A stretch of DNA of 64,000 nt from a virus (IMGVR_UViG_3300046477_000062:54548-118547); one strand, 5' to 3'; shown: positions 31,607 to 48,322, counted from the stretch's first letter. Program-made: numbers and translations. The notes: generated by a model from the sequence alone, not told the origin.

Positions 31607-32404
31607 ATGAAATTTCTGAAAGTCCTGCTGGTTTCCTTCGTAGTCCTGATGATGGCCGCATGTGGCCGCATCGACACCGGTCACTCTGGCGTTCGCACAA
31701 GCTGGAACAAGATGGTCCAGACACAAGTCGTCTCGCCGGGATTCTACGTCGCAGTCACGGACGATGTGACGCAGTACGTCACGAACGAAATCACGTTCAA
31801 GCTGGAAAACGAGAAGCCACAGACCGCCGATAAGTCGTATCTGAAAGACCTCGACGCAACCTATACGTGGCAAGTCACGTCAAACGATCTTCCGACACTG
31901 GTGACGCGATTCAAGAATCGAACCTTGGTTCAAGGCGATGACCGCTACCCGATGGGAATTTACGTCGATGCCGTGATGCAACGTAGCTTGGCACAGGCCG
32001 TCAGCGAAGTCGATGCACTCGATGCAAACCAGAAGCGCACCCAGATCGAGAACAATACGATCAAGTTTGCGACCGAGAAATTCAAAGAAGAAGGACTGGA
32101 CAAAGACATCCGCATCAATCAGGTGATGATCAAGAACATCGAGATTGATCCGCGTCTTCAGGAATCGATCCTTCGCAACGTGACTGCACAGAAGGACAAC
32201 CAGACCAAAGACATCGAGATTTCGACCGCCGACAAAGAAGCGAAGCGTATGGCGAAGCTGGCCGAAAACGGTTCGAATGCGAACTACATCGCCCTGTTGA
32301 ATGCGCAGTCGAACATGAAGATCGCGGAAGGCATCGCGAACGGTCGGGTCAACACCATCGTCGTTCCGGCTGACTTCAAAGGCATCGTGAACACGGCGAA
32401 GTAA
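31607..32404 (+). CDS. SPFH/band-7 (prohibitin-like) domain lipoprotein
   Basis: Signal peptide with lipobox MMAAC; SPFH-like core. Confidence 0.45.
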   Translation: MKFLKVLLVSFVVLMMAACGRIDTGHSGVRTSWNKMVQTQVVSPGFYVAVTDDVTQYVTNEITFKLENEKPQTADKSYLKDLDATYTWQVTSNDLPTLVTRFKNRTLVQGDDRYPMGIYVDAVMQRSLAQAVSEVDALDANQKRTQIENNTIKFATEKFKEEGLDKDIRINQVMIKNIEIDPRLQESILRNVTAQKDNQTKDIEISTADKEAKRMAKLAENGSNANYIALLNAQSNMKIAEGIANGRVNTIVVPADFKGIVNTAK

Positions 32405-32652
32405 TGGCAACGGTTGACGACATCCTGTATGGCGATGACAACCTGTACAAACTGAAGAAAGTCGAAGCTTCAGTTGTTGTCGCTGAGAAGATCGAGCAAA
32501 TGCAACGCCTGTATCAAGAAGTTATGGTACTGGCCGACGAACACGAACTGTATGTCAATGTGACGCTTGAACATCCTGAAGGTATGCGTCTCGGACACAA
32601 CTGCAACCATCACGCAGATGTTGCATGGAACCCGTCTTCGAAGCGTTGCTAA
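32404..32652 (+). CDS. hypothetical protein
   Basis: ORF. Confidence 0.35.
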   Translation: MATVDDILYGDDNLYKLKKVEASVVVAEKIEQMQRLYQEVMVLADEHELYVNVTLEHPEGMRLGHNCNHHADVAWNPSSKRC

Positions 32653-36891: not shown

Positions 36892-38019
36892 ATGAGCAAG
36901 CAATATGATGTGGTGGTGTATCGCGGTCGATTCCAAGGTTTCCATAATGCGCACCTGAAGACGATCCTGATGGCGCTTCAGTTCGCCAAGAAGGTCATCG
37001 TCGTTGTCGGTAGTGCGAATGAAGCCCGCACGTACTATCGCAATCCGTTCTTTGAAGACGAGCGCATCGAGATGATCAAGGGCGCACTGTCGGATCACTT
37101 CCGTCACGAAGATGTGTCGTTCGTTTCGGTTCAAGATAACCCGAGCGATAGCGCATGGGCGGAAGATGTCGAGAACAAGGTTGCCACGCGTGTCAGTCGC
37201 CTGTTCGAAGGAACCGAAGGTGTCGTCAGCATCGCACAGATCGGCTTCAAGAAAGACGCCAACTGCGAACGCGATGTCAATCTGTTCCCGAATTGGGAAT
37301 ACATCGATACGCCCAACTTCGAACCGCTTGACGCTACGCATGTGCGCGAAGTTCTGTTCAGCATGAAGCCGCTTTCGTTCCTTGCTGGTGTCTGTCCGCA
37401 TTCGGTGATTCAATATCTCGAAGGGTTCCGCCAGTCGCAAACATGGTTGAACATGTTCGAAGAAAAGGTCTTCGTTGAGAACTACCAGAAGCAGTTTGCC
37501 GGTCTTCCGTATGCTCCCACGTTCGTCACTGGCGACAACGTAGCAATTCAACGTGGCCGCGTGCTTCTGGTGAAGCGCAAGGGTCATCCGGGTAAGGGTC
37601 TGTGGGCGCTTCCCGCTGGCTTCTTCAACGCAGCAAAGTATGTGAATGGCAAGGGCGAAATCGTCCCGGCTGATCGCGATCCGTTCGACTGTGCGACGCG
37701 TGAACTGTTCGAAGAAACGAATGCCAAGGTCACGCGTATCGAACTGGAAATGCGGGCGATTGCGAAGGAAGTGTTCGCGGCTGAAGGCCGTGATCCGCGT
37801 GGCCGCATCATCACTCATGCATTCGCCTACAACCTCGATACGTTGCCCGATCTTGAAACTGAAGCGGCTGATGATGCAGAAGAACTCGGTTGGTTCTTCC
37901 TCAGTGATCTTGATCCCCACACGATCTACGCGGACCACTACCAGATCATCAAGTGGGGCTTCCAAGAGTACTACAAGATCAGCAATTGGACCTTGCAAGA
38001 TCGGCTGAACCGCATCTGA
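36892..38019 (+). CDS. natV: bifunctional NMN adenylyltransferase / Nudix ADP-ribose pyrophosphatase (NadM-Nudix, NatV-like)
   Basis: GRFQGFHNAH (H/T-x-G-H) nucleotidyltransferase motif; Nudix box RELFEETN. Confidence 0.7.
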   Translation: MSKQYDVVVYRGRFQGFHNAHLKTILMALQFAKKVIVVVGSANEARTYYRNPFFEDERIEMIKGALSDHFRHEDVSFVSVQDNPSDSAWAEDVENKVATRVSRLFEGTEGVVSIAQIGFKKDANCERDVNLFPNWEYIDTPNFEPLDATHVREVLFSMKPLSFLAGVCPHSVIQYLEGFRQSQTWLNMFEEKVFVENYQKQFAGLPYAPTFVTGDNVAIQRGRVLLVKRKGHPGKGLWALPAGFFNAAKYVNGKGEIVPADRDPFDCATRELFEETNAKVTRIELEMRAIAKEVFAAEGRDPRGRIITHAFAYNLDTLPDLETEAADDAEELGWFFLSDLDPHTIYADHYQIIKWGFQEYYKISNWTLQDRLNRI

Positions 38020-38041: not shown

Positions 38042-39397
38042 ATGTACATCTCGAACATCCATCTGACGCCGAACTTCGTCCTTGAATCGGACTCCTACAA
38101 GTTCTCGCACGTCCCGGAAATCTACCCGGAAGGCACGGAAGCACTACATGCCTATCTGTCGGCCCGCGTGAAGGGTCAACGTGTTGTCCAGTTCGGTCCT
38201 TCGATGTGGATCAAGAAGAAGCTGTTGTCCCCAATCACACTGGCGATGATTAACGAAGCCGATGACTTCATCTCGTCCCACATCGGCCCCGATGGGTTCA
38301 ACCGTAGGTTCTGGCTGCACATCCTGAACAACTACGGCGGTTGGATTCCGCTGACGATCCGTGGTCTGCCCGAAGGCACGGTCACGAACAGCACAGACAC
38401 GCTGTTGACTGTGCAGTGTGATGATCGCGCGGTGTTCCCGCTGGCCCAACACATCGAAGCCATGCTTCAGTCGGACCTCTGGTACAGCACGACCATCGCG
38501 ACGAACGATCTGGAAAACTACGAAGTTGCCAAGTCGCACTTCGATCTGTTCTCGGATCAACCGCACCTTCTGCCGTTCATGTTGCATGACTTCGGCGCGC
38601 GTGGTGTGACCTGTGAAGAACAGCGTCAGATTGGCGGTGCGGCGCACTTGCTGTTCTTCCAAGGTTCGGACACGATCAGCGGCATCCGTGCAGCGAATCT
38701 ATACTATGGCTGCGACATGGCCGCGTATTCGGTTCGTGCCACGGAACATAGCATTCAGTGTGCGTATGGTCCCGAAGGGCAAGAGACGTACATTCAACGC
38801 GTTCTGGACGCACATGCGAAGCCGGGTAACATCGTGTCGCTGGTTCTCGATGGCTACAACGTCTGGCGTGAGGCCGAACTTCTCTGTACGAAGTTCAAAC
38901 AGAAGATCATCGACAGCGGCGCAAAGATCGTGTTCCGTCCCGATTCGGGCGACATGTTCGAAGTGGTTCCGCGTCTTCTAGAAATGCAAGCTGAAGCGTT
39001 CGGCTACACGGTCAACAGCAAGAACAAGAAGGTGATCAACAATGTTGGTCTGATTCAAGGCGATGGCATCGACAAGACCACGTTCATGCTGATGATGCAG
39101 AAGGTCGTATCCCTCGGCTATGCCCCCGAAAGCGTCGTCATGGGTTCTGGTGGTGGTCTGCTTCAGAAGGTCAACCGCGATACCCTGAAGTTCGCACAGA
39201 AGGCATCGGCCATCAAGATCAATGGTGTGTGGCGCGACATCTACAAAGACCCGATCACTGACCCCGGCAAGAAGTCGAAGACCGGTTTGCAAGACGATCC
39301 GCGTTTCGTGACGTACTACACGGTCGATGAAGGTCTGGTCTATGACGAAAGTCTGGCGACGATCCGCGAACGTGCATTGGCTGGCGCTGCTGTGTAA
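38042..39397 (+). CDS. nadV: nicotinamide phosphoribosyltransferase (NadV/Nampt-like)
   Basis: DSYKFSH and other NAPRTase-family motifs; adjacent to natV as in vibriophage KVP40. Confidence 0.75.
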   Translation: MYISNIHLTPNFVLESDSYKFSHVPEIYPEGTEALHAYLSARVKGQRVVQFGPSMWIKKKLLSPITLAMINEADDFISSHIGPDGFNRRFWLHILNNYGGWIPLTIRGLPEGTVTNSTDTLLTVQCDDRAVFPLAQHIEAMLQSDLWYSTTIATNDLENYEVAKSHFDLFSDQPHLLPFMLHDFGARGVTCEEQRQIGGAAHLLFFQGSDTISGIRAANLYYGCDMAAYSVRATEHSIQCAYGPEGQETYIQRVLDAHAKPGNIVSLVLDGYNVWREAELLCTKFKQKIIDSGAKIVFRPDSGDMFEVVPRLLEMQAEAFGYTVNSKNKKVINNVGLIQGDGIDKTTFMLMMQKVVSLGYAPESVVMGSGGGLLQKVNRDTLKFAQKASAIKINGVWRDIYKDPITDPGKKSKTGLQDDPRFVTYYTVDEGLVYDESLATIRERALAGAAV

Positions 39398-41384: not shown

Positions 41385-42440
41385 ATGAAAAAATTACTGG
41401 TAGGTATTTTGTTGTCCTTAGTAACGGTGATCGCATTCGCGTTGCCGTCTCCCCGACAGATCGAAGATGCATTGGCCGCTGGCCGCTACAACGATGCACA
41501 GTCGATGGTGTCGCAAGTCCTCAACGAACGGCCCGATTCGGCGCGTGCGCACCTGCTGAATGCGTATCTGCTGATCCATGTCAATCATGACAAGACAGCC
41601 GCCAATGCTGAACTCAACACTGCTTCTGGACTGGACCGCAACGGTGATGTCAAGAACAGTCCGCTGTTTGGTCGCGTCGTAGGCGAAATCGACACGTACA
41701 AGGCCGCTGCGCCGCCCGTTCGACAACGGACATACGAACAGACCCCTTTCGTGCAGCAAGCCGCCGTATCGCCTGTGGTGCAATCTCAACCGAAAGAAAG
41801 TGGTGGTCATGGTTTCCTGATCTTCGTTGTCCTGTTGGTGACTGGTGGTATCTGTGTGATTACCTACCTATTCATCCGTGGCGCAGACGAGCGTCGCAAG
41901 CTGGAAGCCTCTTATACGCCGTACACGTCATCCGGTAGCCGTCGATTGACGCAGACGCGTGGTGGTGGAACCTACAACGCACCGTACAATCCGCCGCCTG
42001 TGCCGCTCGATCCGTACCCGTACTCGTCGCCAGTGATTCATCACCAATCGGCCCCGGTCGTCGTGCAGCAAGCCCCGCAACAGTCGTTTGGTAGTCAAGT
42101 CGCAGCAACCGCAACCGGTGTCGTCGCTGGTGAACTGATTCACGACGCACTTGTTAGCAACAAGCATCATTCCCCGAAGTGGGAAGAACCTGTACGCGAA
42201 CGCGAAGTTGTTCGTGAACGTGATCCAGATTGGGGTTCGCCGTCGCGTACCGAATCCCCGGTGTCGTACAGCAACGAGCGTTCCTCGTTCTCGTCGGGGT
42301 CAGATGATAGCTGGTCGTCGCGTAGTTCCAGTAGTTCGTCGTCTTCCTCGTCGTGGGGCAGCGACAGCAGCAGTTCGTATGACTCCGGTTCCTCGTCGTC
42401 ATGGGATTCGGGCAGCAGTTCGAGCAGTTCCGACTGGTAA
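41385..42440 (+). CDS. membrane protein with a signal peptide, internal TM and poly-Ser/Asp C-terminal tail
   Basis: Signal peptide; TM GFLIFVVLLVTGGICVITYLFI; SSSSSSSSSWGSDSSSS tail. Confidence 0.45.
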   Translation: MKKLLVGILLSLVTVIAFALPSPRQIEDALAAGRYNDAQSMVSQVLNERPDSARAHLLNAYLLIHVNHDKTAANAELNTASGLDRNGDVKNSPLFGRVVGEIDTYKAAAPPVRQRTYEQTPFVQQAAVSPVVQSQPKESGGHGFLIFVVLLVTGGICVITYLFIRGADERRKLEASYTPYTSSGSRRLTQTRGGGTYNAPYNPPPVPLDPYPYSSPVIHHQSAPVVVQQAPQQSFGSQVAATATGVVAGELIHDALVSNKHHSPKWEEPVREREVVRERDPDWGSPSRTESPVSYSNERSSFSSGSDDSWSSRSSSSSSSSSSWGSDSSSSYDSGSSSSWDSGSSSSSSDW

Positions 42441-42478: not shown

Positions 42479-42507
42479 GTTGACAACGACCGGCATTGAG
42501 CGTACAA
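42479..42507 (+). promoter_or_regulatory. sigma70-like early promoter (TTGACA-N17-TACAAT)
   Basis: Upstream CAAACTTG motif. Confidence 0.5.
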
Positions 42508-42553
42508 TTCTTTGTGTCGGTTCTGAAACAAAAACACCTTTGGGAGTTTCATC

Positions 42554-43265: not shown

Positions 43266-43568
43266 GTGTCGAATAACCTGATCAACAGTCCTGAAGCAAA
43301 GAAGCGTTTCAACAACAAGCTGTCGGAAATCTCGGCGTCCTTTACCCGCGTTGAAGCTGAACGCGATCTGGTGAAGACCATCGTGTCCGACCTCGCTGAA
43401 GAATTCCAGATCGACAAGAAGATCGTCAATCTGCTGGCCCGCACGTATCACAAGTCGGACTTCAAAGAGAAGGTCGCAGAGAAGACCGAATTCGAAATCA
43501 TCTACGAAACCATTACGGGTGAAAGCCCGGAAGCCGGTGATTCGTATAACGGCGAAGATGGCGAGTGA
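43266..43568 (+). CDS. acidic hypothetical protein (GTG start)
   Basis: ORF. Confidence 0.35.
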   Translation: MSNNLINSPEAKKRFNNKLSEISASFTRVEAERDLVKTIVSDLAEEFQIDKKIVNLLARTYHKSDFKEKVAEKTEFEIIYETITGESPEAGDSYNGEDGE

Positions 43569-43821
43569 GATGACGAAGTACGCAACCGAACAAGAAGCAA
43601 GTAAGGCAATCGCAGATAAGCTGGCGCAAGCGCAACAGTTGTTCCGCGAATGTGCCGCGATTGCCGAAGAAGCAAATGTCGAAGTACACACGGACATTCT
43701 TGGCCTCTGGGGAACGGGCGTCACATACATCCCGAAGTCCGAACGCGAGGAATGGGGTGAAGAAACCCAAGAACGTCTTGAAGAAGATGGCGGATGGATG
43801 GCATCCGCATCAAGCTGCTAA
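43558..43821 (+). CDS. paralog family member 1 (C-terminal GWMASASSC)
   Basis: Shares the KAIA-KLAQA helix, a G-x-Y-x-P motif and a terminal Cys with five other ORFs. Confidence 0.45.
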   Translation: MASEMTKYATEQEASKAIADKLAQAQQLFRECAAIAEEANVEVHTDILGLWGTGVTYIPKSEREEWGEETQERLEEDGGWMASASSC

Positions 43822-43851
43822 ACCACACGAAACAAACTGAGAACGACCAAC

Positions 43852-44202
43852 ATGCAACTTACTCGCGACGAAGCACAAATTTTCCTGAACATGATCGGCA
43901 GCAACGAAACGGTCCCCGACAGTTCGATGCCGATCCTCGATAAGATCAACTACGCGTTCCCGGACCTCCTTCGTGGAACGAAATATCCGAAGCTGCTTGT
44001 CGAGTGGCGTGCCAATCGCGAGAAGGTGAAGAAGTCGGCACTGGCACAGATCAGCGAACTGCTGGCATCGGCCAAGGAAAACGTCACGGAAGCCACGCGC
44101 ATCGCGAAGGCTGCTGGTGTCGGTTTCGAACTGTGCATCGGTGATCCCGATTACGGTTGCTACTTCGACCCGAACGAAGGTTGGAATTCCTCGAACTGCT
44201 GA
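43852..44202 (+). CDS. paralog family member 2 (C-terminal GWNSSNC)
   Basis: Same family; GVGFEL motif. Confidence 0.45.
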   Translation: MQLTRDEAQIFLNMIGSNETVPDSSMPILDKINYAFPDLLRGTKYPKLLVEWRANREKVKKSALAQISELLASAKENVTEATRIAKAAGVGFELCIGDPDYGCYFDPNEGWNSSNC

Positions 44203-44210
44203 GAACATTC

Positions 44211-44444
44211 ATGACGCAAATCACACAAGAACAGAAGCAAGAAGCGATTCAACTGATCGCAGAGCAAGTCAAGATCGCAGAAGAAGCACTCGCGAAGGCC
44301 GAACAGTTGGCGAAGGAAGCGCGGGTTGGCTTCGAATTCACGTTCGACGGCATCACTGGTTCGTATTACACGTATCGTCCGTATGGAAAGACCGATGCGC
44401 CGGTTGAAGGTTACTACGATGGCTGGCAAGGGTCGTCCTGCTGA
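44211..44444 (+). CDS. paralog family member 3 (C-terminal GWQGSSC)
   Basis: Same family; RVGFEF motif. Confidence 0.45.
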   Translation: MTQITQEQKQEAIQLIAEQVKIAEEALAKAEQLAKEARVGFEFTFDGITGSYYTYRPYGKTDAPVEGYYDGWQGSSC

Positions 44445-44755
44445 TGGACAAGCAATTCCTCGCGGAGCGCAAGAAAGCCGTTAAGGAAATTGCGCGACTG
44501 ACGGCACTTCAGAAGCAATGCATCGAAAGCATCGAAGAACTGGCTGACCAGTACGGCATCCGCGTTGAACTGGACCTTCCGGCAACGGGTTACAACGGCG
44601 ACGTGTGGTATGTGCCGAACCTGCCAGAAGAACTTCGAGAGAAGATTGACGCCGGTGAAGATGTTGACCTGTCGGGTACGGAATGGGAAGAATCCGCCGA
44701 ATTCGATTCTTATGGCGAACAACACGGCTGGAAGAACAGTTCGTCCTACTGCTGA
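44444..44755 (+). CDS. paralog family member 4 (C-terminal GWKNSSSYC)
   Basis: Same family; TGATG overlap with member 3. Confidence 0.45.
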   Translation: MDKQFLAERKKAVKEIARLTALQKQCIESIEELADQYGIRVELDLPATGYNGDVWYVPNLPEELREKIDAGEDVDLSGTEWEESAEFDSYGEQHGWKNSSSYC

Positions 44756-44758
44756 ACC

Positions 44759-45001
44759 ATGACAGACAAGATGACACAAGAAGAAGCCGCGAAGTTCGTA
44801 TCGGCTTTGGCTGAAAGTATTCGCACGACGCTTCGGACCATCGTTCAAGTTGCAGACGAACATGATCTGGATGTGAAGTTGCTGGATGAATTTGACAATT
44901 ACCTTCGTTACTACGGTCGCACATGGACCGAAGAAGATACCGTTGGCGGAATCGAGTACGTTCGAACCGGTGACGGCGGTTGGTATAGTTCACACTGCTG
45001 A
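44759..45001 (+). CDS. paralog family member 5 (C-terminal GWYSSHC)
   Basis: Same family. Confidence 0.45.
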   Translation: MTDKMTQEEAAKFVSALAESIRTTLRTIVQVADEHDLDVKLLDEFDNYLRYYGRTWTEEDTVGGIEYVRTGDGGWYSSHC

Positions 45002-45013
45002 GTAAAAACAAAC

Positions 45014-45943
45014 ATGATTATCATTGGTTCGAAAGCACTGGTAGCACACGGCATTCAAACGGGTCGCAAGTCGTTCGACATCGACGTGGTAGGCGAGTAT
45101 GACGAAATCGTTGACTATGCGAAGAAGTATCACGGCAACATTCGCGCGTGCTACCCGATTGATGAAGGCAAGAAGCTGGTAGTGAAGACGGACCGGACGA
45201 TCATCGAAGGTGAAATCACATGGGAAGGATCGAGCGCAGCGGCATTGCGTGACCTGATCCTTGCCGACCCCCGGACGATCCATGCGCGTGACTTTGTAGG
45301 CCATCGTTTCGCGTCTGTGGACGTGTGCTACATGCTGAAGATGTCGCATCGTTACCTGAAGGATTCGCCTCACTTCCTGAAGACGATGCGCGACATCAAG
45401 CTGCTTCGCGAGAAGGGCGCAACGATCCGCCCGGAACACGAAGCGTTCTATCAGCAACGGATGAAGGACACCTACGTCTACAAGCATCCGAAGCTGGATC
45501 AGTCGAAGAAAGACTTCTTCAATGGCGATGGCGTGAAGTACGTCTATGATCATGACAGCATCCACGAAGCAGTGAAGCATCTGATCAAACCGGCCTACAC
45601 GTTCTACAAGCCCGACGAGAGCGAAGTGAACTGTTCTCGTGAGATGTTTGACGCTGTGCCGCGCATCATCCGGCTGTATGGTGGTCTGGAAGAAGCCTAC
45701 GTGTTGGCGCTGGAACGCTCACAGATTCCGTTCGGTGATCTGTGGTCCCCGAAGAAGTCGTTTGACATGGCGCTGATGAAGGTCTGTACGTCGATCACAT
45801 CGGGCTGGTTCCGCGAATTCTGTTGGGAGCACTACGACGAGATTCAATCGCTTTATGACCCGGAATATGTTGAGAAGTTTTGGGCGAAGGCAATGGCGGG
45901 TGAAGTGAAGCCATACAATATCGAAGAAGACGTTTACGCATAA
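45014..45943 (+). CDS. putative pol-beta-superfamily nucleotidyltransferase (GS...DID motif), unknown specificity
   Basis: N-terminal IIGSKALVAHGIQTGRKSFDIDVV resembles the hG[GS]...DxD NTase motif. Confidence 0.4.
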   Translation: MIIIGSKALVAHGIQTGRKSFDIDVVGEYDEIVDYAKKYHGNIRACYPIDEGKKLVVKTDRTIIEGEITWEGSSAAALRDLILADPRTIHARDFVGHRFASVDVCYMLKMSHRYLKDSPHFLKTMRDIKLLREKGATIRPEHEAFYQQRMKDTYVYKHPKLDQSKKDFFNGDGVKYVYDHDSIHEAVKHLIKPAYTFYKPDESEVNCSREMFDAVPRIIRLYGGLEEAYVLALERSQIPFGDLWSPKKSFDMALMKVCTSITSGWFREFCWEHYDEIQSLYDPEYVEKFWAKAMAGEVKPYNIEEDVYA

Positions 45944-45951
45944 AGAATATC

Positions 45952-46116
45952 ATGAGCAAAGACATTAAAGCATTCCTCGCACTGGTTGGTGTTTATCTTG
46001 TCGTCCATGTCGTCCATGTCATCGGTGCGGCATTGGGATTCGACGAAAATGCAGTTTCGCTTGGCTACATCGGCGGAATCGTGGGAAGCTACACCTACAC
46101 GGCACTTCGCAATTGA
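45952..46116 (+). CDS. small two-TM membrane protein
   Basis: Hydrophobic 54-aa ORF. Confidence 0.3.
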   Translation: MSKDIKAFLALVGVYLVVHVVHVIGAALGFDENAVSLGYIGGIVGSYTYTALRN

Positions 46117-46119
46117 GTC

Positions 46120-46380
46120 ATGATCGAGAAAGATAAAGAACTTGTTTCAAAGGCAATCGCGGCGAAGCTGGCACAAGCTGATGTACTGTTGGCTGAATGT
46201 GTGATGCTGGCCGAAGAAAGCGGTGTATGTTTCGAACTTCCGTGGGGCGGCGAAGGCACACAGCAACGCGGCATGGGGGCGGGTTACGTCCCGACAACCG
46301 CAAGCGAACGCGACAAAGAGTGGAACATCACGAACTACGATGATTCGACTGGTTGGCAACCGTCTGCGGGAATCTGCTAA
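46120..46380 (+). CDS. paralog family member 6 (C-terminal GWQPSAGIC)
   Basis: Same family; KAIAAKLAQA ... GVCFEL. Confidence 0.45.
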   Translation: MIEKDKELVSKAIAAKLAQADVLLAECVMLAEESGVCFELPWGGEGTQQRGMGAGYVPTTASERDKEWNITNYDDSTGWQPSAGIC

Positions 46381-46386
46381 AAGTAG

Positions 46387-46415
46387 TTGACAATGGTGGG
46401 AATCTTGTTTAAGAT
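46387..46415 (+). promoter_or_regulatory. sigma70-like early promoter (TTGACA-N17-TAAGAT)
   Basis: Spacer has GGTGGGAATC (inverted family motif); ATTCCCA follows the -10. Confidence 0.55.
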
Positions 46416-46445: not shown

Positions 46446-46574
46446 ATGGACCGCTTCTATGACTTCATGATCAGCAACACCGTGTGGAACCTTCCGATTT
46501 GGGCGACAGTCGCCCTGATGGTCGTCCTCGCGATCCTTCGCGCGTTCTGGGACGTCATTCACTGGTTCGCCTGA
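46446..46574 (+). CDS. small membrane protein
   Basis: SD AGGAGGAAAG; 42 aa hydrophobic. Confidence 0.3.
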   Translation: MDRFYDFMISNTVWNLPIWATVALMVVLAILRAFWDVIHWFA

Positions 46575-46780: not shown

Positions 46781-46953
46781 TGCAAGAAACAACTAAAGAC
46801 CCGGTTAAGACGTTCTACCTTCTTGGCTTCAACGATGTCATGTTTCGCGGGCGTAAGCGTAGGCGTCCGGTCGGTGTCATGTACAAGCTTGCCTACACCG
46901 ATGGTTGGTTTGACGCAAAGTTAGGACGTGGAAACCGCTACAAAGATAAATAA
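46780..46953 (+). CDS. hypothetical basic protein
   Basis: SD AAGGAGAG. Confidence 0.4.
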   Translation: MQETTKDPVKTFYLLGFNDVMFRGRKRRRPVGVMYKLAYTDGWFDAKLGRGNRYKDK

Positions 46954-46963
46954 TATGTGTGGC

Positions 46964-47011
46964 CCTTGGGCTACGAAGTCTAATAATTCTGTCAAAACAG
47001 TAGCCCAAAGG
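46964..47011 (+). other. inverted repeat CCTTGGGCTAC / GTAGCCCAAAGG around CTAATAATTCTGTCAAAACA
   Basis: An 11-bp imperfect inverted repeat with a CTAATAA box in the loop, upstream of the His-rich gene. Confidence 0.35.
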
Positions 47012-47016
47012 ACACC

Positions 47017-47895
47017 ATGAAGACCTTTCACCAACTGCGCCGTTATCTCAACGACCTTCCGCTGATCAGTGAAGAACTGCACCAGTCGATCACCAACGTT
47101 CTCGATTCGGAACACATCGCACCCGAACACAAGCTGAACCATATCTCCCATGCGATCCGTGGCGCGATTAAGCGGGGCGAGGATCATGGTCTGGAAGACG
47201 CGAAGCCCAAGAAGGGTTCCAGTCGTGCCGTGTTCTTCCCGAAAGACCCGCACAAGCTGAAGATCGATGGCGTCGATACGCATATGCCTACGGCCCTGAA
47301 GGTCGCGTTTCCCGGCCAACTGGACAAGTACAAGACGCACGACGAATCGCTGCTTGGGGAGGAACAGAACCGCGTAGAAGGCGATCACTGGACCAACCAA
47401 GAGTTCGGCGTTCTGCGCAAGGGTGACCGCCATGACGAGTACCATACAAACGAGCATGGCTTCCTTGCTCCGATGCTGCACGCCCACGATGAAGGTCATC
47501 ACATCCACTTCGGTAAGATCGAACCCATTAAGGCGGGTGACTTCCAGAAGCACACAGTTGCGCCCGGATTCCCGAAGGGTATCAGCCATCAGGAGATGTA
47601 CGACTACCTGAACCATCATCACGAAGAAGCCCACGGAAAGTCCTACACAGGCAAGACAAGCCCGGAACGGATCGAGCAACTTGACGATCATCCGATGCTC
47701 AACAACATGCATAGCTGGATGGGAAATACGGGCGCACATCCGGCTGATCTGAACAAGCGGAACATGGGTCTTTGGACGCATCCGGTGACGGGCAAGAAGC
47801 ATGTCGTGGTCAGTGACTACGGCTATACGGGCGATGTCGCCAAGCAGTACATGCAGCGCAGAATGAGACAAAGCAAAGCCCTGCGGGGTTGGTAA
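47017..47895 (+). CDS. histidine-rich hypothetical protein
   Basis: ORF; many HxH / HHH clusters. Confidence 0.45.
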   Translation: MKTFHQLRRYLNDLPLISEELHQSITNVLDSEHIAPEHKLNHISHAIRGAIKRGEDHGLEDAKPKKGSSRAVFFPKDPHKLKIDGVDTHMPTALKVAFPGQLDKYKTHDESLLGEEQNRVEGDHWTNQEFGVLRKGDRHDEYHTNEHGFLAPMLHAHDEGHHIHFGKIEPIKAGDFQKHTVAPGFPKGISHQEMYDYLNHHHEEAHGKSYTGKTSPERIEQLDDHPMLNNMHSWMGNTGAHPADLNKRNMGLWTHPVTGKKHVVVSDYGYTGDVAKQYMQRRMRQSKALRGW

Positions 47896-47902
47896 AGAGA
47901 AG

Positions 47903-47928
47903 GCCGGTCGAAAGATCGGCCTTTTTTG
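47903..47928 (+). terminator. rho-independent terminator
   Basis: GGCCGGTC-gaaa-GATCGGCC followed by TTTTTTG. Confidence 0.6.
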
Positions 47929-47938
47929 TTTCTGGGTA

Positions 47939-47967
47939 TTGACAATGAATTCCCAGACCTGTATATT
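47939..47967 (+). promoter_or_regulatory. sigma70-like early promoter (TTGACA-N17-TATATT)
   Basis: Spacer ATGAATTCCCAGACCTG. Confidence 0.55.
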
Positions 47968-48001
47968 TCTTCTCACTGACACACATCCGGGAGAGAACGA
48001 C

Positions 48002-48322
48002 ATGGCAAAGGCAATTTACGATCTGCGCGACGGCAAGAACCACGCTCAATACCTCGTCTTGAAGAAGGCATCGGGTCATTACCTGATCTTCGCGAACAAC
48101 GTAACCGATGCCGTTGGCGAAATCCGCAAGCGTGCGCACAACGACTGGTACGGTGAAGTCACCATCGATGACATGTTCTTCAACTGCTGCGATGACAGTC
48201 TCGCGGATGTCATGAGTGGTCTGGAAACGTGCATCGTGCGCAACGGCAAGCCGGGTTCGATCTACCAGAAGGATGCGGCAGCGTGGACACAAAACCTGTT
48301 GGATCGTCTCCGAAAGGGTTGA
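48002..48322 (+). CDS. hypothetical protein
   Basis: Leader CCGGGAGAG. Confidence 0.4.
   Translation: MAKAIYDLRDGKNHAQYLVLKKASGHYLIFANNVTDAVGEIRKRAHNDWYGEVTIDDMFFNCCDDSLADVMSGLETCIVRNGKPGSIYQKDAAAWTQNLLDRLRKG

What the first reader, a model, noticed from the sequence alone, without database searches (positions are those of the whole stretch)
43558..46380. Tandem array of six paralogous small proteins ending in GW-x-SS-x-Cys-stop, flanking a nucleotidyltransferase gene
Five consecutive ORFs (43558..45001) plus a sixth (46120..46380) share an N-terminal helix (KAIAxKLAQA...AEE.GVxFEL), a central G-x-Y-x-P segment and an invariant ending. In every copy the last residue is Cys, preceded by GW and a Ser-rich spacer: GWMASASSC, GWNSSNC, GWQGSSC, GWKNSSSYC, GWYSSHC, GWQPSAGIC. 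The genes are translationally coupled (TGATG-type overlaps) and their middle regions have diverged. A 309-aa protein with a pol-beta-type NTase motif sits inside the cluster. A terminal cysteine conserved across six paralogs suggests a functional C-terminus, for example a metal ligand, a thioester/lipidation site, or a substrate for a modifying enzyme such as the adjacent NTase. I do not recognise this family.
Basis: seen in the sequence. Interest (0 to 1): 0.85.

Follow-up and report, generated by a model that had tools for sequence, protein, structure and literature searches.

The report
Phage Cys-tailed small proteins plus nucleotidyltransferase
Seven small acidic proteins of a T4-like phage, all ending in the same short Trp-x-x-Ser...Cys tail, turn out to be one half of a two-gene module (tail proteins plus a nucleotidyltransferase) that recurs in hundreds of large phages, including the model phage RB69, and has no known function.

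Summary
Six + strand ORFs (43558-46380) and a seventh (32404-32652) are true paralogs (PHROG 899, unknown function). All end in W-x-x-S-x(1 or 3)-Cys-stop.

The main new result is the linkage. In 83 diverse phage loci found through the NTase alone, 72 carry 1-6 family genes. All lie on the same strand, and 163 of 174 lie just upstream. Seven more loci carry the same or a related tail on a diverged body. No other neighbouring gene is conserved.

A profile built without the tail columns finds 118 homologs. 107 end in Cys, 112 have the full tail, and none has Thr in place of the Ser. RB69 has the cassette; the 150 kb of T4 scanned has neither part.

The small family is large (1312 clusters), has no Pfam entry and no structural relative, and I found no paper on it.

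Best reading: an early-expressed module in which the NTase acts on the tail, probably by nucleotidylylating the invariant Ser. The chemistry is inferred, not shown. Distant actinophage relatives of the enzyme lack tail proteins.

The parts
42480..42508 (+). sigma-70-like promoter (TTGACA-17-TACAAT, 11 of 12) at the head of the transcription unit that holds the cluster
   Evidence: Consensus match only; the number of promoter-like sites in the region is not above the shuffle expectation.
43558..43821 (+). paralog 1, 87 aa, pI 4.3, tail GWMASASSC; its start overlaps the dsbA-like gene (43266-43568) by 11 nt
   Evidence: (phrog_899, E 1.7e-11)
43852..44202 (+). paralog 2, 116 aa with an N-terminal extension, tail GWNSSNC
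   Evidence: (phrog_899, E 6e-4)
44211..44444 (+). paralog 3, 77 aa, tail GWQGSSC (Cys at Ser+2)
   Evidence: ortholog in L007
44444..44755 (+). paralog 4, 103 aa, net charge -12, tail GWKNSSSYC; the only TGATG overlap, with paralog 3
44759..45001 (+). paralog 5, 80 aa, tail GWYSSHC
45014..45943 (+). pol-beta-fold nucleotidyltransferase, 309 aa: DUF7277 (residues 1-78; G5-S6, D22-x-D24, E65) plus helical DUF7275 (104-281)
45952..46116 (+). 54-aa hydrophobic ORF between the NTase and paralog 6; probably not part of the module
   Evidence: A hydrophobic ORF directly downstream of the NTase is found in only 12 of 83 loci.
46120..46380 (+). paralog 6, 86 aa, tail GWQPSAGIC; the downstream position is kept in related contigs L004, L005 and L007
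   Evidence: (AF2 pLDDT 81.8: helix 6-34 plus three short strands, flexible tail)
46387..46415 (+). next sigma-70-like promoter (TTGACA-17-TAAGAT, 10 of 12), 7 nt after paralog 6; marks the likely end of the unit
32404..32652 (+). paralog 7, 82 aa, tail AWNPSSKRC; dispersed copy 12 kb upstream, just after an SPFH/Band-7 gene
   Evidence: (hmmsearch E 3e-4)

Best explanation
This is a phage-specific two-component module, expressed early. One component is a pol-beta-fold nucleotidyltransferase (DUF7277+DUF7275). The other is a set of one to seven small, very acidic partner proteins.

Each partner is a long helix packed against a three-stranded mini-sheet. A flexible tail projects from it: W-x-x-S-x(1 or 3)-C, usually ending the protein.

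I propose that the tail is the element the NTase acts on. The enzyme binds the tail as an extended strand and transfers a nucleoside monophosphate to the invariant Ser hydroxyl at W+3. The Cys thiol lies two or four residues on, which puts it on the same face of an extended strand, so it could take part in or resolve the reaction.

The variable bodies of the paralogs then carry the modified tail to different host or phage targets during takeover.

What is shown: the family, the tail constraint, the NTase fold and catalytic motifs, the near-obligate gene linkage, restriction to phages, and the ancient, stable paralogy.

What is inferred: physical interaction between tail and NTase.

What is speculative: Ser nucleotidylylation, the role of the Cys, and the biological target.
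For: (1) Linkage. 83 loci were retrieved through the NTase alone (a few are near-duplicates).
- 72 have 1-6 family ORFs. Of 174 family ORFs, 163 lie upstream (152 within 1.5 kb), 11 downstream and none on the opposite strand.
- Of the other 11 loci, 3 are cut off upstream. Six carry the same tail motif on a diverged body just upstream, and L069 carries a related W-N-D-S-T-C tail. Only L045 lacks a Cys-bearing tail.
- All-against-all clustering of the neighbourhoods finds no other conserved gene. The NTase occurs in 84 loci, the tail family in 69, and the next clusters in 18 (itself partly tail-bearing) and 16.

(2) Presence and absence. RB69 has the cassette inserted beside e.3. T4, scanned over 150 of 169 kb, has neither part. 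Yersinia phage fHe-Yen9-01 has both, adjacent.

(3) Tail constraint. A profile with the tail columns removed recovers 118 non-identical homologs. 107 end in Cys, 112 have W-x-x-S-x(1-4)-C, and none has Thr at the Ser position. The Ser-to-Cys gap is 3 residues (84 cases) or 1 residue (20 cases). In the top 134 representatives of the commonest class, W, S, S and C are each present in 134 of 134.

(4) The tail is portable. It sits on bodies that the family HMM no longer recognises.

(5) The enzyme looks active. D22 and D24 are invariant and G5, S6 and E65 are at least 90% conserved in 74 sequences. The model is confident and has an NTase fold.

(6) The paralogs are old. p3-p6 score higher against their orthologs in L007 (NTase 67% identical) than against each other. 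This argues for distinct retained roles.

(7) Precedent, from established knowledge. Pol-beta-fold enzymes nucleotidylylate protein hydroxyls (GlnE, GlnD, DrrA, MntA). CitX and MdcG attach a nucleotide-derived group to a Ser of a small acidic carrier protein.
Against: - No covalent modification or physical contact was demonstrated.
- The closest solved folds, the MenT toxins, act on tRNA 3' ends and not on proteins.
- Distant NTase relatives in actinophages and actinobacteria (250-286 aa) have no tail-bearing neighbours. The enzyme core can therefore work without such partners.
- One paralog (p7) lies 12 kb from the NTase.
- A few natural members have lost the Cys (Kimel gp070 and gp071).
- The one apparent natural fusion of tail protein and NTase was a gene-calling artefact.
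Confidence: 0.4

Rival explanations
1. Adaptor or regulator model. The NTase acts on nucleic acid, for example by adding nucleotides to tRNA 3' ends as MenT toxins do. The small proteins are non-covalent subunits. Their tail plugs into a conserved site on the enzyme, either as a pseudo-substrate brake like the MenA antitoxins or as a docking peptide. Their variable bodies set target choice or timing.
For: - The best structural matches are MenT1, TglT and MenT4.
- MenT1 is controlled by a small helical partner, MenA1, whose N-terminal helix acts on the active site.
- Relatives of the enzyme without tail proteins exist, as expected if the partners are accessory.
- Some relatives lie near tRNA genes, polynucleotide kinase and RNA ligase.
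- One enzyme with many diverged, long-retained paralogs fits a set of adaptors.
Against: - The strict invariance of Ser (never Thr, 0 of 118) and of Cys suggests chemistry rather than docking.
- The window has no tRNA genes.
- A toxin-antitoxin logic does not explain arrays of up to seven partners in a lytic phage.
Confidence: 0.25
2. RiPP-like tail maturation. The NTase activates the Ser by O-nucleotidylylation. Elimination gives dehydroalanine, and the Cys adds to it to form a lanthionine-like thioether ring, or some other Ser-Cys crosslink, at the protein's end.
For: - The gene order, with several precursor-like genes directly upstream of one enzyme, is the layout of many RiPP clusters.
- A Ser and a Cys at fixed short spacing is the chemical requirement for lanthionine.
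- Ser is never replaced by Ala in the core position.
Against: - No dehydratase, cyclase, protease or transporter gene is conserved nearby.
- The conservation pattern is the reverse of classical RiPPs: here the 'core' is constant and the 'leader' is variable and folded.
- Dehydratases normally accept Thr, yet Thr is never seen.
- No NTase is known to do this.
Confidence: 0.07
3. Thiol or sulfur carrier arms. The tails act like the C-terminal Cys arms of DsrC and TusE, shuttling a persulfide or another thiol-bound group to a substrate that the NTase activates by adenylylation.
For: - A flexible C-terminal arm ends in Cys on a small acidic protein.
- The thiol rather than the carboxylate is what is conserved, since residues after the Cys are tolerated.
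Against: - No sequence match to DsrC/TusE or to any sulfurtransferase.
- No desulfurase or rhodanese gene is conserved nearby.
- This model does not explain the invariant Ser.
- Known adenylylating enzymes of sulfur relays are PP-loop or E1-like, not pol-beta fold (established knowledge).
Confidence: 0.05
4. No functional link. The small proteins are independent early host-takeover or anti-defence factors, for example acidic decoys whose terminal Cys binds a metal or forms a disulfide. They travel with the NTase only because both sit in the same mobile accessory cassette.
For: - p7 lies away from the NTase.
- Actinophage NTases lack tail proteins.
- Accessory regions of T4-like phages are mosaics of small early genes.
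Against: - The linkage persists down to about 40% NTase identity, in contigs from 5 kb fragments to 430 kb and in very different phage groups, while every other neighbour changes.
- Strand and upstream position are kept in 163 of 174 cases.
- In each genus checked, fewer or equal numbers of records hit a family member than hit the NTase.
Confidence: 0.12

Closest known systems
MenT/MenA (DUF1814, AbiEii) nucleotidyltransferase toxin-antitoxin systems
   Same: - A small partner gene lies upstream of the enzyme, and MenA1 is a small helical protein that acts at the active site.
   Different: - The partners here are unrelated to MenA or AbiEi, come in arrays of 1-7, and carry a Ser/Cys tail.
- The module is phage-restricted, with only 4 loci in 185,579 species genomes, and is not a chromosomal TA pair.
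- The substrate is unknown.
Protein-nucleotidylylating pol-beta NTases (GlnE-glutamine synthetase, GlnD-PII, DrrA-Rab1, MntA-HepT)
   Same: A pol-beta-fold enzyme acts on a dedicated protein partner through a side-chain hydroxyl (established knowledge; review PMC12409994 found). In GlnD the NTase is followed by a second domain that removes the mark.
   Different: - The known acceptors are Tyr (or Thr), not a C-terminal Ser/Cys tail.
- There is no sequence similarity to these families.
CitX/MdcG holo-ACP synthases with CitD/MdcC carrier proteins
   Same: An NTase-superfamily enzyme attaches a nucleotide-derived group by a phosphodiester bond to a Ser of a small acidic carrier protein of about 100 aa (established knowledge, not tested here).
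   Different: - No sequence match.
- There the thiol comes with the prosthetic group; here a Cys is encoded next to the Ser.
- No CitG-like gene is present.
- There are multiple carrier paralogs here.
DsrC/TusE C-terminal cysteine arms
   Same: A small protein has a flexible C-terminal arm whose (pen)ultimate Cys is the working group (established knowledge).
   Different: No homology, a different fold, an extra invariant Trp and Ser, and no sulfur-relay genes nearby.
Multi-precursor RiPP clusters (e.g. prochlorosins, class III lanthipeptides with Ser/Ser/Cys motifs)
   Same: Several small genes sit directly upstream of one modifying enzyme, and the C-terminal segment holds Ser and Cys at short spacing.
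   Different: The constant and variable parts are swapped. The N-terminal part is a folded domain. No known RiPP enzyme domains are present. Thr is never used.

Membership tests
PHROG 899 (unknown function) | significant match to the family profile | tested here: met
   All six paralogs match, E 1.7e-11 to 6e-4, to profile positions about 136-221 of 221. The family carries no functional annotation.
Pfam DUF7277 + DUF7275 (PHROG 2141) | both domains above the gathering score | tested here: met
   DUF7275 scores 234 bits (cut-off 27) and DUF7277 scores 39.6 bits (cut-off 27). phrog_2141 E 6e-107. All are domains of unknown function.
DNA polymerase beta-like nucleotidyltransferase superfamily | hG[GS] loop, D-x-D pair, third acidic residue | tested here: met
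   In 74 aligned sequences, G5-S6 are at least 90% conserved, D22 and D24 are invariant, and E65 is at least 90% conserved.
DNA polymerase beta-like nucleotidyltransferase superfamily | minimal NTase fold | tested here: met
   [not shown]
MenT/AbiEii (DUF1814) toxins | sequence membership in PF08843 | tested here: not met
   No hit at E up to 1 in Pfam and none in PADLOC.
MenT/AbiEii (DUF1814) toxins | cognate MenA/AbiEi-type antitoxin gene | tested here: not met
   The upstream genes are the tail family. None of them matches any Pfam family.
MenT/AbiEii (DUF1814) toxins | nucleotide addition to tRNA 3' ends; toxicity | not testable with these tools
   Needs tRNA 3'-end sequencing and growth assays.
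GlnE/GlnD-type protein nucleotidyltransferases | sequence membership; HD or second NTase domain | tested here: not met
   [not shown]
Lanthipeptide / RiPP clusters | dehydratase, cyclase or other known RiPP enzyme domain in the cluster | tested here: not met
   Only two gene families are conserved in 84 neighbourhoods. The NTase has no such domain.
Lanthipeptide / RiPP clusters | conserved leader, variable core | tested here: not met
   The opposite holds: the tail is constant and the body variable.
DsrC/TusE sulfur carriers | sequence or fold membership | tested here: not met
   [not shown]
Known T4 accessory gene family with established function | homolog in T4 with a described role | tested here: not met
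   No family member and no NTase homolog in T4 positions 1-100,000 and 119,000-168,903. The RB69 homologs are 'hypothetical'. No paper was found.

The most novel reading that the evidence does not exclude
This is a previously undescribed, phage-specific protein-tagging chemistry. A dedicated pol-beta nucleotidyltransferase covalently converts a genetically encoded Trp-x-x-Ser...Cys tail on a family of small carrier or effector proteins, either into a Ser-linked nucleotide or, through it, into a Ser-Cys crosslink. The phage thereby makes a set of modified effectors early in infection. Such a system would be comparable in logic to carrier-protein prosthetic groups or ubiquitin-like tags, but unrelated to either.
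Probability: 0.3. Interest if true: 0.9.

Novelty: categorically new. Interest (0 to 1): 0.72.

Why it matters
The module is not a curiosity of one metagenomic contig.

- The enzyme occurs in 730 GenBank phage records and in more than 2,700 protein clusters.
- The tail family has 1,312 clusters at 50% identity.
- It is present in workhorse phages such as RB69 and in Acinetobacter, Pseudomonas, Klebsiella, Aeromonas and jumbo phages, many of them therapy candidates.
- Yet neither part has a name, a structure or a paper.

Its early, host-promoter-driven expression and its place in hyperplastic regions point to host takeover or counter-defence.

If the NTase modifies the tails, this would be a new kind of post-translational chemistry and a new class of phage effectors. 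If instead the tails steer an RNA-directed NTase, it would be a new way for phages to reprogram translation.

Either way the question is directly testable in RB69 and E. coli with a handful of constructs.

Tried and rejected
1. Natural fusion as Rosetta-stone evidence. P0273 (377 aa) looked like tail protein fused to NTase. Translating the contig shows a stop after ...PACW, so it is a gene-calling artefact. No in-frame fusion occurs in the 83 loci.
2. A conserved third component. The small membrane ORF downstream of the NTase is hydrophobic in only 12 of 83 loci. Clustering finds no other conserved neighbour.
3. Disulfide exchange with the near-invariant NTase Cys258. Rejected because eight tail-bearing loci have Ala or Ser there.
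4. Selenocysteine or stop-codon read-through after the Cys (four of the window genes end TGC-TGA). Rejected because 131 of 183 tail genes elsewhere end in TAA.
5. AgrD-like lactone between the Ser and the C-terminal carboxylate. Rejected because the ring size is not constant and residues after the Cys are tolerated.
6. AviCys-type terminal Cys decarboxylation. No flavoprotein gene is present, and the Cys is not always terminal.
7. Sequence searches that found nothing useful: PDB, PADLOC, NCBIfam, megablast of the region against phages and tblastn of paralog 1.
8. The search for related loci with the small-protein alignment failed for lack of a conserved 7-10 column block, so the reverse survey (tail family to NTase) could be done only indirectly.
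9. The afdb50 fold library was unavailable.
10. Eight literature searches returned no paper on either family. One search served only to document MenT.
11. tRNA link. The window has no tRNA genes.
Full report
**1. What is in the window**

The region lies in the early, replication-gene part of a T4-like phage genome.
- PHROG matches in the window include the gp41 helicase, gp61 primase, NrdA and the gp32 SSB.
- A DsbA-family gene lies at 43266-43568.
- The closest relatives are 168-kb viral contigs.
- GC content is about 52%. There is no near-identical GenBank phage.

On the + strand lie, in order:
- a dsbA-like gene;
- five small ORFs (43558-43821, 43852-44202, 44211-44444, 44444-44755, 44759-45001);
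- a 309-aa ORF (45014-45943);
- a 54-aa hydrophobic ORF (45952-46116);
- a sixth small ORF (46120-46380).

Spacing is tight: an 11-nt overlap, then gaps of 30 and 8 nt, a 1-nt overlap, then gaps of 3, 12, 8 and 3 nt. Only one junction is a true TGATG overlap.

Two near-consensus sigma-70-type promoters bracket the unit, at 42480-42508 and 46387-46415. The T4 late-promoter box TATAAATA is absent from all 64 kb. Early transcription by host RNA polymerase is therefore the likely mode. This is an inference from consensus matches only.

**2.

- The six proteins align at 26-39% identity to the first, with an invariant Trp, Ser and terminal Cys.
- Each hits PHROG 899, a family of unknown function.
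- They are small (77-116 aa) and acidic (pI 4.3-4.95, net charge -3 to -12).
- An HMM built from the family found a seventh paralog at 32404-32652, ending AWNPSSKRC.
- Of 1254 mechanical ORFs in the window, exactly these seven end in W-x-x-S-x(1-4)-C.

**3. The family beyond the window**

- A word-indexed search found 29 close homologs. Each orthologous group keeps its own tail variant: GWQGSSC, GWYSSHC, GWKNSSSxC, GWQPSAxxC or GWNSSNC.
- An exhaustive profile search of 1.84 billion representatives found 1312 clusters at E up to 1e-3 and 231 at 1e-10.
- Of the top 146 representatives, 141 end in Cys and the other five have one further residue.
- The commonest tail is G-W-x-[SAP]-S-S-x-[SN]-C. 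W, S, S and C are each present in 134 of 134 members of that class.
- Median length is 81.5 aa and mean net charge is -7.1.

That profile contained the tail, so I rebuilt it with the tail columns removed and searched the ORFs of 83 phage loci.
- It recovered 118 non-identical homologs.
- 107 end in Cys, and 112 have W-x-x-S-x(1-4)-C.
- 115 have W-x-x-S, and none has Thr in place of the Ser.
- The Cys lies at Ser+4 in 84 cases and at Ser+2 in 20. In an extended strand those positions share one face with the Ser; this is my inference.

Exceptions exist. Acinetobacter phage Kimel gp071 and gp070 end ...SSESY and ...NSES, while their orthologs in sister phages end ...SSETC and ...NSEC. A minority carry 1-3 residues after the Cys. 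The thiol, not the terminal carboxylate, is therefore the conserved group.

None of 150 members matches any Pfam family.

**4. The 309-aa protein**

- It is Pfam DUF7277 (N-terminal) plus DUF7275 (C-terminal) and PHROG 2141, all of unknown function.
- The NTase signature is conserved in 74 homologs: G5-S6, invariant D22 and D24, and E65.
- The model is confident (pLDDT 92.6).
- It is therefore a genuine but distant member of the pol-beta fold. It shows no sequence membership in DUF1814/AbiEii and no PDB relative by sequence.
- MenT enzymes add nucleotides to tRNA 3' ends and are held in check by small MenA partners.
- The protein occurs in 730 GenBank phage records and in 2713 protein clusters.
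- It occurs in only 4 loci among one genome each of 185,579 bacterial and archaeal species. One of those is a 167-kb phage-like contig. The family is essentially confined to phages.

**5. The key result: a conserved two-gene module**

I collected loci through the NTase alone: three GenBank phages and 80 IMG/VR contigs down to about 40% NTase identity, on contigs from 5 kb fragments to 430 kb.

- Family HMMs hit 174 ORFs in 72 of the 83 loci.
- All 174 are on the NTase strand. 163 lie upstream (median gap about 520 bp, 152 within 1.5 kb) and 11 lie downstream.
- Of the 11 loci without an HMM hit, three are truncated upstream.
- Six more (L033, L044, L056, L057, L065, L068) have ORFs with the same tail motif on bodies the HMM no longer recognises, just upstream of the NTase. 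L056, for example, has five genes ending FW[IV]PSSM[ES]C.
- L069 has an upstream ORF with a related tail...AWNDSTC.
- L088 has a diverged member with an internal motif. L045 has W-S-S but no Cys.
- The tail regex hit only 41 of 8133 other ORFs of at least 50 aa. Nearly all of these are also + strand ORFs just upstream of an NTase.
- All-against-all clustering shows that nothing else is conserved. The NTase is in 84 loci and the tail family in 69. The next real clusters are in 18 loci (half of them tail-bearing) and 16. A 58-locus cluster is an antisense artefact inside the NTase gene.
- The small membrane ORF seen in the window is not conserved (12 of 83).

Some loci are near-duplicates (for example L029/L030, L040/L041, L074/L075), so the counts overstate independence somewhat. 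The pattern still spans T4-like, jumbo, 90-100 kb Pseudomonas and 150-kb Escherichia phages.

**6. Presence and absence controls**

- In RB69 the cassette (ORF139c/138c, 137c, 136c, 135c, and NTase ORF134c) sits directly after e.3.
- In T4, e.3 is followed by e.2. Scans of T4 positions 1-100,000 and 119,000-168,903 find neither the NTase nor any family or tail ORF. The 19 kb not scanned holds structural genes 18-29.
- Yersinia phage fHe-Yen9-01 was found through a tail protein. It has a 38%-identical NTase 280 bp downstream.
- phiPsa397 has a family member 84 bp upstream of its NTase.
- In each genus checked, the number of records hitting a tail protein does not exceed the number hitting the NTase.

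I could not run a direct reverse survey.

**7. Age of the array**

- Related contigs L004, L005 and L007 keep the same layout of five genes upstream and one downstream.
- Paralogs p3-p6 score 152-248 against their L007 counterparts, where the NTase is 67% identical. They score 24-102 against one another.
- The duplications are therefore old, and each copy has been kept. This argues for separate roles.

**8. Limits and contrary evidence**

- Short NTase relatives in Gordonia and Streptomyces phages and in two actinobacterial assemblies (250-286 aa) have no tail-bearing neighbours. The partnership is therefore a property of the main clade, not of the fold.
- Those relatives, and the jumbo Salmonella phage 7t3, lie near tRNA genes, polynucleotide kinase or RNA ligase. 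That is a weak hint towards RNA.
- An apparent fusion protein was an artefact.

**9. Interpretation**

What is shown is a tight, ancient, phage-restricted genetic coupling between an apparently active NTase and proteins defined by a W-x-x-S...C tail.

I infer that the tail is the element through which the two interact. It is the only part conserved across bodies that have diverged beyond recognition.

I then choose, at about 0.4 confidence, covalent nucleotidylylation of the invariant Ser. The reasons are:
- pol-beta NTases transfer NMP to hydroxyl groups;
- several of them do so on protein partners (GlnE, GlnD, DrrA, MntA; CitX and MdcG act on the Ser of small acidic carriers; established knowledge);
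- absolute Ser (never Thr) and Cys conservation looks like chemistry rather than docking.

The main rival (0.25) is a MenT-like RNA-directed enzyme with the small proteins as adaptors or brakes. Thioether formation, a thiol-carrier role and mere co-travel are less likely.

**10. Novelty and verdict**

Both families are catalogued only as DUF or PHROG entries without function. I found no paper on them, on the tail motif or on their linkage.

The small family has no sequence or fold relative. The enzyme is related to known ones only at fold level. I therefore rate the module as lying outside every described kind of system, with the caveat that its mechanism is unproven.

It is widespread, present in RB69, and testable with simple experiments.

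Noticed in passing
window 36892-38019 and 38042-39397 (+): An adjacent NMN adenylyltransferase-Nudix fusion (CTP_transf_like + NUDIX) and a NAMPT/NAPRTase-family gene. This is a phage NAD+ salvage pair of the kind reported to counter NAD-depleting defences.
   Followed up: no
window 41385-42440 (+): A 351-aa protein with a signal or TM segment, a TPR repeat, a second TM segment and a long C-terminal low-complexity run of Ser with interspersed W/D (…SSSSSSSSSWGSDSSSSYDSGSSSSWDSGSSSSSSDW). It has weak DUF2076/SARAF matches. It also has a Trp/Ser-rich C-terminus but is not a family member.
   Followed up: no
window 31607-32404 (+), next to paralog 7: An SPFH/Band-7 domain protein lies immediately upstream of the dispersed seventh paralog.
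   Followed up: no
window, whole 64 kb: There is no TATAAATA (T4 late promoter box) anywhere and there are no tRNA genes. Many genes in the cluster lack a recognisable Shine-Dalgarno sequence and have A-rich leaders, while a gene starting near 46447 has AGGAGG.
   Followed up: partly
window 44481-45011 (-), 44990-45580 (-), 46921-48003 (-) and others: Long antisense ORFs overlap the coding strand. They recur as a 'conserved' antisense cluster in 58 loci. They are mechanical by-products of the coding-strand composition, not genes.
   Followed up: yes
L086 107-1240 (ENA contig ERZ23498405 scaffold_61451): A database protein (P0273, 377 aa) merges a tail protein and the NTase by reading through a stop codon (…PACW*KGKH…). 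It is a gene-calling artefact or an alternative-code call.
   Followed up: yes
L003 3828-4206 (Acinetobacter phage Kimel gp071, gp070): Two family members in this phage have lost the terminal Cys (…SSESY, …NSES), whereas orthologs in sister phages keep it (…SSETC, …NSEC). These are natural loss-of-Cys variants and could be informative.
   Followed up: partly
P0171; L073 5398-5616; L065 5729-5974; L087 4884-5126: Some members carry two tail motifs, one internal (for example …WQSSACYGEGDD… or …WKSSAGSCGW…) and one terminal.
   Followed up: no
L091 (Gordonia phage PhinkBoden), L092 (Streptomyces phage Wakanda), L093 (Salmonella phage 7t3): NTase relatives lie near tRNA gene clusters, polynucleotide kinase and RNA ligase genes. 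This is a possible hint of an RNA-related role for the enzyme.
   Followed up: partly
L094 5435-6445 (T4 nrdC.11): T4 nrdC.11 is annotated 'nucleotidyltransferase' but has no detectable similarity to the DUF7277/DUF7275 profile.
   Followed up: yes
L084 2185-2491 (RB69ORF139c and ORF138c): These two short annotated ORFs together correspond to one family gene (gp261) in the related phage O157tp3 (L002 3873-4178). The RB69 copy may be split by a frameshift or mis-annotated.
   Followed up: no
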